Shown: piece by piece, positions 49,548-49,608 of the stretch | Layout: every line of letters starts with the position of its first letter | Numbering within the stretch: position 1 is the stretch's first letter | Assembly (NCBI RefSeq): GCF_988243305.1 | Contig: NZ_OZ547136.1 | Strand: one strand, 5' to 3' | Length of the DNA stretch: 64,000 nt | The notes under the pieces: generated by a model | What the model was told of the DNA's origin: nothing | Seen by the model: the letters and a program-made list of their open reading frames with translations, nothing else | Databases searched by the model: none | Program-made: the position numbers and the translations under genes

Positions 49548-49608
49548 TCTTTCCGCCTGTTACCAACCCGAAACGGGCATAAATAAACCCGTTTCGGGTA
49601 GCATCCAA

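What the first reader, a model, noticed from the sequence alone, without database searches (positions are those of the whole stretch)
49567..49598. Perfect 11-bp inverted repeat between ybtA and irp2
cccgaaacggg-cataaataaa-cccgtttcggg is a perfect 11-bp inverted repeat with a 10-nt AT-rich loop. It sits downstream of the ybtA terminator hairpin and upstream of the Fur-like box of irp2. It is not followed by a U-run, so it is unlikely to be a simple terminator; it could be an operator for a dimeric regulator (YbtA binding repeats are known in this promoter) or an RNA structure.
Basis: seen in the sequence. Interest (0 to 1): 0.35.

Follow-up and report, generated by a model that had tools for sequence, protein, structure and literature searches.

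The report
YbtA operator of the irp2 promoter
The perfect inverted repeat between ybtA and irp2 is the already described pair of YbtA-binding "repeated sequences" that, with the adjacent Fur box, switches on yersiniabactin synthesis genes; it is a DNA operator, not an RNA structure, and is ordinary.

Summary
The repeat is real. It extends to 12+12 bp, ACCCGAAACGGG / CCCGTTTCGGGT at 49566-49599, with a 10-nt A/T-rich spacer. It lies 18 bp after the ybtA terminator hairpin, 11 bp before the irp2 Fur box and 75 bp before the irp2 ATG.

[quoted passage not shown] The same 34-bp box, at the same distance from a Fur box, precedes fyuA (1 arm mismatch). A degenerate copy in the opposite orientation lies in the ybtP/ybtA intergenic region. 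These are the three promoter regions where the literature places the YbtA "repeated sequences" (RS).

A weight matrix built only from sites next to YbtA homologues in other genera (43-57% identical regulators) finds exactly these two sites in the 64-kb window.

Across 45 distinct sites, three things are conserved:
- a tandem half-site CCGATnCGGGT with a 21-bp period;
- an AAA-containing spacer;
- a Fur box 6 or 11-12 bp downstream.

Arm complementarity is not conserved: 69.3% paired versus 67.9% in column shuffles. The perfect palindrome is a peculiarity of the ybt/HPI clade.

Verdict: this is the known YbtA operator (RS1/RS2) of the irp2 promoter. The RNA and terminator readings are rejected. 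Interest is low.

The parts
48524..49483 (+). ybtA, the AraC-family regulator that is the proposed binder of the box
   Evidence: ORF. RefSeq annotation 'yersiniabactin transcriptional regulator YbtA' on identical E. coli DNA. Residues 215-318 match the SoxS/AraC DNA-binding domains. Pfam PF12833/PF00165 on cluster representatives.
49515..49547 (+). ybtA terminator-like hairpin (14-bp perfect stem, 5-nt loop, then TCTTTCC)
   Evidence: I2; RNA fold. The consensus terminator scan did not flag it because the T-run is weak.
49566..49599 (+). YbtA box of the irp2 promoter, which is the finding. Distal half-site 49566-49578, A/T-rich spacer 49578-49587, promoter-proximal half-site 49587-49599. It is oriented towards irp2.
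   Evidence: A matrix built from non-HPI sites scores it 36.7 bits on the + strand and 22.5 bits on the - strand; the next unrelated hit scores 9.8 and shuffles reach at most 13.6. It is conserved while its flanks diverge.
49611..49629 (+). Fur box of irp2 (GTTAATAATTATTATTCTC), overlapping the predicted -10
   Evidence: The sequence is. It is identified as a Fur-binding site shifted by Fur in EMSA, overlapping the BPROM-predicted -10, in PMC11225919. It has 14/19 matches to the Fur consensus and starts 11 nt after the box.
49620..49625 (+). Probable -10 hexamer TATTAT (inferred). With a 17-bp spacer, the -35 would overlap the last 3 bases of the box (GGT, 49597-49599).
   Evidence: Inference from the sequence and from the statement in PMC11225919 that the -10 overlaps the Fur box. 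The transcription start was not mapped here. The strict sigma-70 scan found no promoter, as expected for an activator-dependent promoter.
49674..55781 (+). irp2 (HMWP2), first gene of the activated operon irp2-irp1-ybtUTE
   Evidence: RefSeq start at L001:20275, which is window 49674. The ORF runs to 55781.
48465..48498 (-). Second YbtA box in the window (GACCAATGCGGGTATAAATAGAACCGAATGGGGT on the - strand). It is oriented towards ybtP and lies inside the ybtA leader.
   Evidence: 35.7 bits with the non-HPI matrix. It fits the literature: two YbtA sites in the ybtA 5' leader (PMC8805033), and RS1 and RS2 between the Fur box and ybtA (construct list in PMC5634559).
48434..48452 (.). Fur box of the divergent ybtP/ybtA promoters (GTGAATAATAACCATTATC)
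   Evidence: Sequence. It differs by one base from the pESI site GTGAATAATAAGCATTATC described in PMC11225919. A Fur-like match lies 6 or 12 nt after the box on the - strand.

Best explanation

Proposed mechanism: two YbtA DNA-binding domains of a dimer loaded with (ferric) yersiniabactin occupy two 11-13-bp half-sites whose starts are 21 bp apart, that is, two helical turns on the same face of the DNA. The promoter-proximal half-site abuts or overlaps a poor -35. Bound YbtA then recruits RNA polymerase in the class II manner of AraC-type activators and turns on irp2-irp1-ybtUTE. The Fur box 11 bp downstream, over the -10, vetoes this when iron is plentiful.

Shown here:
- the anatomy of the element;
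- its recurrence at the other YbtA-dependent promoters;
- its orientation;
- its fixed phasing with Fur boxes;
- its co-occurrence with YbtA-family genes across genera;
- conservation as a protein-type site, without hairpin covariation.

Taken from the literature: YbtA binds RS elements, activates irp2, fyuA and irp6/ybtP, and represses ybtA.

Inferred: the positions of -35 and -10, the class II mechanism, and one DNA-binding domain per half-site.
For: 1. The window is the HPI. The region is 100% identical to E. coli chromosomes annotated ybtA | irp2, and it is found in 2265 of 5426 complete genomes.

2. The same box precedes fyuA: ACCCGAAACAGGTTGAAATAAACCCGTTTCGGGT, 1 mismatch in the arms against 0.00 chance matches expected, followed by the same AGCA and a Fur box at the same distance. 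A degenerate copy in inverted orientation lies in the ybtP/ybtA intergenic region.

3. The literature supports these locations:
[quoted passage not shown] - Two YbtA sites lie in the ybtA leader (PMC8805033).
- Pseudo-palindromes occur in all HPI leaders (PMC8725597).

4. In 80 loci fetched through YbtA homologues, boxes sit immediately upstream or downstream of the regulator gene. With a threshold of 30 bits, 25 of 60 YbtA-like loci have a site, against 0 of 20 loci with other AraC regulators and 0 of 60 shuffled loci.

5. In Pectobacterium, three boxes each precede a siderophore gene: an ABC exporter, an RhtX/FptX-type MFS transporter and a TonB-dependent receptor. Each box has its own Fur box.

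6. A matrix built without any HPI site picks only 49566-49599 and 48465-48498 in the 64-kb window.

7. Conservation is of the protein-site type:
- CGGG(T) is invariant or nearly so in both half-sites, and AAA in the spacer.
- The box is 32/34 conserved in Serratia symbiotica (YbtA 79% identical) while its flanks are unalignable.

8. In E. coli the element occurs only in genomes that carry the HPI, at two sites per island.

9. YbtA residues 215-318 match the SoxS/AraC two-HTH DNA-binding domains.
Against: - Binding was not tested here.
- The primary footprinting papers (Fetherston 1996; Anisimov 2005a,b) are not in the held library. The equation 'arms = RS1 and RS2' therefore rests on secondary descriptions plus my sequence comparison, not on the printed footprints.
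- The irp2 transcription start, and hence the -35 overlap, is inferred.
- The third site (RS3) reported for the ybtA/irp6 region was not recovered by my half-site scan, so my model of the site may be incomplete.
- The weight matrix was seeded from pattern hits, which is partly circular. This is mitigated by the leave-HPI-out scan and by the control loci.
Confidence: 0.9

Rival explanations
1. RNA hairpin. Transcripts that read through the ybtA terminator fold the repeat into a 12-bp stem-loop. This would act as a second terminator, a 3'-end stabiliser, or a regulatory structure upstream of irp2.
For: The strand folds into this hairpin in the minimum-free-energy structure of 49484-49660 (whole segment z = -8.1). 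The ybtA terminator has only a weak T-run (TCTTTCC), so some read-through is conceivable.
Against: - No U-run follows the stem on either strand.
- Across 45 related sites the arms pair in 69.3% of cells against 67.9% in column shuffles, and sliding the partner by -1 still gives 58.9%.
- Changes in L087, S. symbiotica and K. michiganensis are uncompensated.
- The loop (spacer) is itself conserved and orientation-specific.
- The same box works in both orientations relative to neighbouring genes, and always at a fixed distance from a Fur box.
- There is no Rfam match.
- The box lies upstream of the predicted irp2 -10, so it is not in the irp2 mRNA.
Confidence: 0.04
2. Operator for a different, host-encoded or unknown regulator rather than YbtA, for example the unknown AraC-like factor postulated to act on RS sites in HPI-negative E. 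coli.
For: PMC5634559 reports ybtA-promoter activity that needs all RS sites in DH5alpha, which lacks YbtA, and speculates about another factor binding 'in YbtA-like fashion'.
Against: - The box co-occurs with YbtA-family genes across Enterobacterales, Burkholderiales, Chromatiales, Oceanospirillales and Sphingomonadales. These hosts share no obvious other candidate.
- It is absent from E. coli genomes without the island.
- It is absent from 20 loci of other AraC regulators.
- A second binder is not excluded, but it would act in addition to YbtA, not instead of it.
Confidence: 0.04
3. No function of its own: a chance palindrome, a remnant of a mobile repeat (REP/MITE-like), or merely a recombination scar.
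For: The irp2 and fyuA boxes are near-identical repeats 19 kb apart. In Klebsiella indica, the interval between them is missing, with the junction at a box.
Against: - Only 0.1 perfect inverted repeats of this size are expected by chance.
- There are only two copies per island and none elsewhere in 5426 E. coli genomes.
- The box is strongly conserved while its flanks diverge.
- The architecture is conserved in distant genera.
Confidence: 0.02

Closest known systems
YbtA 'repeated sequences' RS1/RS2 of the psn(fyuA), irp2 and ybtP(irp6)/ybtA promoters of the Yersinia HPI (Fetherston et al. 1996; Anisimov et al. 2005a,b, as cited in PMC5634559, PMC11225919 and PMC8805033)
   Same: Same island, same promoter, same neighbours (Fur box, ybtA, irp2). 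There are two repeats per activated promoter. The repeats are shared between the irp2, fyuA and ybtP/ybtA regions, with two sites in the ybtA leader. I regard the finding as identical to this element.
   Different: Nothing of substance. I could not read the printed RS sequences or the footprints, so the base-by-base borders of RS1 and RS2 were not compared. RS3 of the ybtA/irp6 region was not located here.
AraC I1-I2 half-sites at araBAD, and the sites of other dimeric AraC-family class II activators (RhaS, MelR)
   Same: Two half-sites are bound by the two-HTH C-terminal domains of a dimer. The period is 21 bp, as for I1-I2 (own knowledge). The proximal half-site touches the -35. Activation depends on a small ligand. 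YbtA residues 215-318 match the AraC and SoxS DNA-binding domains.
   Different: The half-site sequence is unrelated: GC-rich CCGATnCGGGT with internal dyad symmetry. A conserved A-tract spacer is present. There is no evidence of a distal looping site. The co-repressor layer is a Fur box over the -10.
PchR-box of Pseudomonas aeruginosa (Michel et al. 2005, title cited in PMC10393863)
   Same: A box of about 32 bp recognised by a siderophore-responsive AraC-type regulator, present in the promoters of the cognate biosynthesis, receptor and regulator genes, working together with Fur boxes, with the siderophore as effector (own knowledge plus the paper's title).
   Different: Different regulator subfamily and, from memory, a different box sequence. 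Not compared here because no pch locus was fetched.

Membership tests
YbtA operator (RS1/RS2 repeated sequences of the HPI) | Present in the promoter regions of the YbtA-controlled transcription units irp2, fyuA/psn and ybtP(irp6)/ybtA | tested here: met
   The irp2 site is at 49566-49599. The fyuA site is at L001:39428-39461 (1 arm mismatch). The ybtP/ybtA site is at 48465-48498. The literature places RS elements in these promoters (PMC5634559).
YbtA operator (RS1/RS2 repeated sequences of the HPI) | Lies just upstream of, or overlapping, the -35 of the activated promoter and next to a Fur box; in the repressed ybtA promoter it lies downstream of the start site | tested here: inconclusive
   The Fur box is 11-12 nt (or 6 nt) after the box in all HPI sites and in 35 of 45 sites overall. 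The ybtA-leader location agrees with PMC8805033 and with the TSS reported in PMC11225919. The irp2 TSS and -35 are only inferred.
YbtA operator (RS1/RS2 repeated sequences of the HPI) | Physically bound by YbtA (footprint or EMSA) | not testable with these tools
   Reported by Anisimov et al. 2005a,b according to PMC5634559 and PMC11225919. The primary texts are not held.
YbtA operator (RS1/RS2 repeated sequences of the HPI) | Co-occurs with the regulator gene and is conserved while its flanks diverge | tested here: met
   25 of 60 YbtA-like loci have a site of at least 30 bits, against 0 of 20 control loci and 0 of 60 shuffled loci. Phylogenetic footprint.
Intrinsic (Rho-independent) terminator | G+C-rich stem-loop directly followed by a U-run | tested here: not met
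   The stem is present. The next bases are AGCATCCAATTG on the + strand and TGGTAACAGGCG on the - strand. The scan flags no + strand terminator here.
Conserved structured RNA element | Base pairs maintained by compensatory changes, or a match to a curated RNA family | tested here: not met
   69.3% of cells are paired against 67.9% in shuffles. Double changes occur in 3 pairs, against 3.5 expected. No Rfam match covers the repeat at E <= 1.
Dispersed repeat (REP/MITE-like) | Many copies spread over the genome | tested here: not met
   Found only in the 2266 E. coli genomes that carry the HPI. The median of 4 BLAST places corresponds to 2 sites read on both strands.
Fur box | Match to the 19-bp GATAATGATAATCATTATC consensus | tested here: not met
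   The repeat is G+C-rich. The Fur box is the separate element at 49611-49629.

The most novel reading that the evidence does not exclude
The HPI box is one instance of a widely conserved, oriented 'YbtA-family box'. Its consensus is aaCcGATnCGGGT-nnAAAtag-AcCCGATtCGGGT: tandem half-sites 21 bp apart, followed 6 or 11-12 bp later by a Fur box. It sits beside YbtA-like regulators down to roughly 43% identity, possibly weaker at about 40% in Pseudomonas, in Enterobacterales, Burkholderiales, Chromatiales, Oceanospirillales and Sphingomonadales.

I found no description of such a cross-genus consensus in the searchable library. It would allow regulon prediction for many uncharacterised siderophore clusters.

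A sub-reading: the perfect palindrome (AAA/TTT centres) is a derived state of the ybt clade, and the two near-identical boxes can act as recombination substrates that delete the biosynthetic operon, as in Klebsiella indica.
Probability: 0.5. Interest if true: 0.3.

Novelty: already known. Interest (0 to 1): 0.1.

Why it matters
The box is the cis-element through which yersiniabactin, a major virulence-associated siderophore of Yersinia, ExPEC, Klebsiella and Salmonella pESI, feeds back on its own synthesis genes. That role has been in the literature since 1996-2005, so confirming it adds little.

Two points go slightly beyond the existing description:
- What selection maintains is an oriented tandem half-site pair with an A-rich spacer phased to a Fur box, not the palindrome.
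- The same architecture marks YbtA-like siderophore loci in many other Proteobacteria, which could be used for regulon annotation.

Tried and rejected
- **Primary papers.** I tried to read the primary and review papers with the printed RS sequences and footprints: Perry & Fetherston 2011, Pelludat 1998, Bearden 1997 and Miller 2010. None is held.
- **Full-text sequence search.** Searching for the repeat sequence itself gave only unrelated primer hits. The supplements of PMC8725597 contain only primers that overlap the box.
- **RS1/RS2 term search.** This was swamped by SNP identifiers.
- **Search for RS3.** A half-site scan of the ybtP/ybtA intergenic region found only the two half-sites of the box, so RS3 remains unlocated.
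- **Sigma-70 promoter scan.** It found nothing in 48300-49800. This fits an activator-dependent promoter but gives no positive -35/-10 assignment.
- **Terminator reading.** Rejected because there is no U-run.
- **RNA family.** Rejected.
- **Dispersed repeat.** Rejected.
- **Small ORF.** The ORF at 49402-49608 on the - strand (68 aa, TTG start) overlaps the repeat. I treated it as a mechanical ORF without support.
- **Yersinia copy.** Looking up the exact YbtA protein returned contigs without organism names, so the Yersinia copy of the intergenic region was not inspected directly.

Full report
**Observation**

The sequence at 49567-49598 is cccgaaacggg-cataaataaa-cccgtttcggg, as reported. The repeat finder extends it by one base pair: arms 49566-49577 and 49588-49599, 12 nt, 100% complementary, 10 nt apart.

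The window contains four perfect inverted repeats with arms of at least 12 nt and loops of 3-20 nt. Forty dinucleotide-preserving shuffles gave a mean of 0.1 and a maximum of 1. The exact 11-mer occurs only in these two arms, and matches with up to 2 mismatches are at chance level, 22 against 19.7.

Each arm is itself a small palindrome, CCCG-NNN-CGGG. The two arms therefore differ only in the central AAA/TTT. Read as a direct repeat, the units ACCCGAAACGGGC and ACCCGTTTCGGGT start 21 bp apart.

**Context**

[quoted passage not shown] Bases 49400-49720 are 100% identical to E. coli chromosomes annotated ybtA | irp2, and the region occurs in 2265 of 5426 complete E. coli genomes.

The layout around the repeat is as follows.

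| Feature | Coordinates | Source |
|---|---|---|
| ybtA stop | ends at 49483 | |
| 14-bp perfect hairpin, then TCTTTCC | 49515-49547 | |
| The repeat | 49566-49599 | |
| GTTAATAATTATTATTCTC | 49611-49629 | |
| irp2 ATG | 49674 | |

PMC11225919 describes the 19-mer at 49611-49629 as the irp2 Fur-binding site. That paper says it overlaps the predicted -10 and is shifted by purified Fur.

The repeat therefore lies between the ybtA terminator and the irp2 core promoter. If the -10 is TATTAT at 49620-49625, a 17-bp spacer puts the -35 at 49597-49602, overlapping the last 3 bases of the repeat. This is my inference. The strict sigma-70 scan finds no promoter there, as one would expect for an activator-dependent promoter.

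**Other copies in the island**

The fyuA promoter carries ACCCGAAACAGGTTGAAATAAACCCGTTTCGGGT (L001:39428-39461). It has one mismatch in the arms, against 0.00 chance matches expected. It is followed by the same AGCA and by a Fur-like box at the same distance.

The ybtP/ybtA intergenic region carries a degenerate copy at 48465-48498. Read on the minus strand, towards ybtP, it is GACCAATGCGGGTATAAATAGAACCGAATGGGGT, again followed by a Fur box.

In E. coli the element is found only in the 2266 genomes that carry the island. The median of four BLAST places per genome corresponds to two sites, each read on both strands because the query is palindromic. It is therefore not a dispersed repeat, and BLAST detects no extra-island site.

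**Literature**

[quoted passage not shown] It states that YbtA is proposed to bind them as a homodimer with yersiniabactin. YbtA activates irp2, fyuA and irp6 and represses ybtA.
- The construct list of the same paper gives the order RS3 - Fur box - RS1 - RS2 - ybtA. This matches the position of the 48465-48498 box between the Fur box (48434-48452) and the ybtA ATG.
- PMC8805033 places two YbtA sites in the ybtA 5' leader.
- PMC8725597 notes pseudo-palindromes, taken to be YbtA sites, in all HPI leader regions.

The primary papers (Fetherston 1996; Anisimov 2005a,b) are not held. I could not compare the printed RS borders or the footprints.

**Comparative test**

YbtA homologues form a graded series from 99% down to about 40% identity. 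An alignment of 25 of them retrieved 80 loci from species-representative genomes.

A simple pattern scan found the motif clustered in three places: just upstream of the regulator gene, just downstream of it, and before nearby genes. A weight matrix then confirmed this. The genera include Pectobacterium, Brenneria, Serratia, Paracidovorax, Sulfuritalea, Ectothiorhodospira, Alcanivorax, Novosphingobium, Nitrococcus, Janthinobacterium and Herbaspirillum.

At a threshold of 30 bits the counts of loci with at least one site are:

| Set of loci | Loci with a site |
|---|---|
| YbtA-like loci | 25 of 60 |
| Loci of unrelated AraC regulators | 0 of 20 |
| Shuffled YbtA-like loci | 0 of 60 |

A matrix built from the 38 sites outside the HPI clade was used to scan the 64-kb window. 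It returns the finding at 36.7 bits on the + strand and 22.5 bits on the - strand, and the ybtP/ybtA site at 35.7 bits on the - strand. The next unrelated hit scores 9.8 bits, and the maximum over shuffles is 13.6. The box is therefore oriented, and it points towards the activated gene.

In Pectobacterium aroidearum (L008), three boxes precede three genes: the divergent ABC exporter gene, an RhtX/FptX-type MFS transporter gene and a TonB-dependent siderophore receptor gene. Each box has its own Fur box.

Over all 45 distinct sites, a Fur-like 19-mer (at least 12/19 matches) starts 6 nt after the box in 17 sites and 11-12 nt after it in 17. Fur sites are hexamer arrays, so these two registers are equivalent.

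**What is conserved**

The consensus of the 45 oriented sites is aaCcGATnCGGGT nnAAAtag AcCCGATtCGGGT. G11, G12, G31 and G33 are invariant. C3, A6, C9, G10, A16, A17, G26 and G32 are conserved in at least 90% of sites.

Identity between the two half-sites at a 21-bp offset is 0.80-1.00 over the CGGG block. Complementarity between the arms averages 7.5 of 12 pairs, and it reaches 12 of 12 only in HPI-type irp2 sites.

The formal pair count gives 69.3% of cells paired, against 67.9% (sd 0.7) after shuffling partners within columns. Three pairs have double changes, against 3.5 expected. Sliding the partner by -1 still gives 58.9%. The pairing is what the self-symmetric CCG...CGG blocks give automatically, and there is no covariation.

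Within the ybt clade the box is a clear phylogenetic footprint:
- It is identical in a lineage with 91% YbtA identity.
- It has one uncompensated change (G26A) at 90% identity.
- It has two changes (A8G, C13G) in Serratia symbiotica at 79% identity, where the flanks no longer align.
- It has two uncompensated arm changes (C2A, T27A) in K. michiganensis. The second of these moves towards the cross-genus consensus.

No Rfam family matches the repeat.

**Mechanism**

YbtA has a C-terminal two-HTH domain, residues 215-318, homologous to those of SoxS and AraC (Pfam PF12833/PF00165). No structure of YbtA itself is in the PDB copy.

The best-supported reading is that a YbtA dimer carrying its siderophore ligand places one DNA-binding domain on each half-site. 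The half-sites are two helical turns apart. The proximal domain lies next to the -35 and recruits RNA polymerase, while Fur over the -10 imposes iron repression. In the ybtP/ybtA region the same box activates ybtP and, because it lies in the ybtA leader, represses ybtA.

- Shown here: anatomy, recurrence, orientation, phasing, co-occurrence and the type of conservation.
- From the literature: binding, and the direction of regulation.
- Inferred: the class II contact and one domain per half-site.

**Rivals**

- An RNA hairpin in read-through ybtA transcripts would fold. It has no U-run, no covariation, a conserved 'loop', and it occurs in both orientations relative to genes (confidence about 0.04).
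- A different regulator binding the box is not excluded as an additional player (speculation in PMC5634559). It does not explain the co-occurrence with YbtA-family genes across orders (about 0.04).
- Chance, or a mobile-repeat remnant, is contradicted (about 0.02).

**Comparison with known systems, and verdict**

The element is the known YbtA operator (RS1/RS2) of the irp2 promoter. It works like other dimeric AraC-family class II sites, such as AraC I1-I2 with its 21-bp period, and like the PchR-box with its Fur box in pyochelin genes.

Novelty: already known.

Two modest additions come out of this work. The palindrome is a clade-specific special case of an oriented tandem box. And the box-plus-Fur-box architecture is conserved next to YbtA-like regulators in many Proteobacteria; I did not find that described in the searchable library.

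Noticed in passing
L003:3249-5158 (Klebsiella indica TOUT106, NZ_VCHQ01000031.1): ybtA is followed, after about 56 bp, directly by a YbtA box and fyuA (91% identical to the E. coli fyuA region). The 19.3-kb irp2-irp1-ybtUTE operon is missing. The box there has an irp2-like spacer but fyuA-like downstream sequence. This suggests a deletion by recombination between the two near-identical boxes: regulator and receptor are kept, and biosynthesis is lost.
   Followed up: partly
window 48465-48498 (- strand): A second, degenerate YbtA box is oriented towards ybtP and lies inside the ybtA leader, with the shared Fur box at 48434-48452. The third site reported in the literature (RS3, on the ybtP side of the Fur box) was not recovered by my half-site scan.
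   Followed up: partly
L008:3835-3868 (-), 4966-4999 (+), 6749-6782 (+) (Pectobacterium aroidearum L6): Three YbtA-type boxes, each followed by a Fur box, precede an ABC exporter gene, an RhtX/FptX-type MFS transporter gene and a TonB-dependent siderophore receptor gene. They surround a regulator 55% identical to YbtA. This looks like a complete box-defined regulon in an uncharacterised siderophore locus.
   Followed up: partly
L028-L049, about 3917-3965 (- strand) (Pseudomonas fluorescens-group genomes): A weaker but very uniform variant, ACCGGATACGGCTCGAATCAGATCACATCGGGGT (16-21 bits), sits 35-85 bp upstream of regulators 39-41% identical to YbtA. It may be the diverged box of that subfamily.
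   Followed up: no
window 24839-24869 and 31976-32007: Two other perfect inverted repeats: 13-bp arms with a 5-nt loop (ACACCAGGCCGGA...), and 12-bp arms with an 8-nt loop (AGCCTGAGTTCG...). They were found while computing the chance expectation and were not examined.
   Followed up: no
L066:561-594 and L074:3600-3633 (uncultured Clostridia / Oscillospiraceae MAGs): A box-like sequence, GTCGGATTGGGGTATAGAACTGCCGGATTCGGTC (19-20 bits), lies near distant AraC-type regulators (28% identical to YbtA) in Firmicutes MAGs. The score is just above the shuffle maximum measured for the window (13.6 bits), so this may be chance.
   Followed up: no
L001 (E. coli E2865, NZ_AP018808.1): In this bovine isolate, the HPI copy that is 100% identical over the promoter region is annotated with a frameshifted irp1 and a frameshifted integrase. 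An intact operator therefore does not imply an intact island.
   Followed up: no
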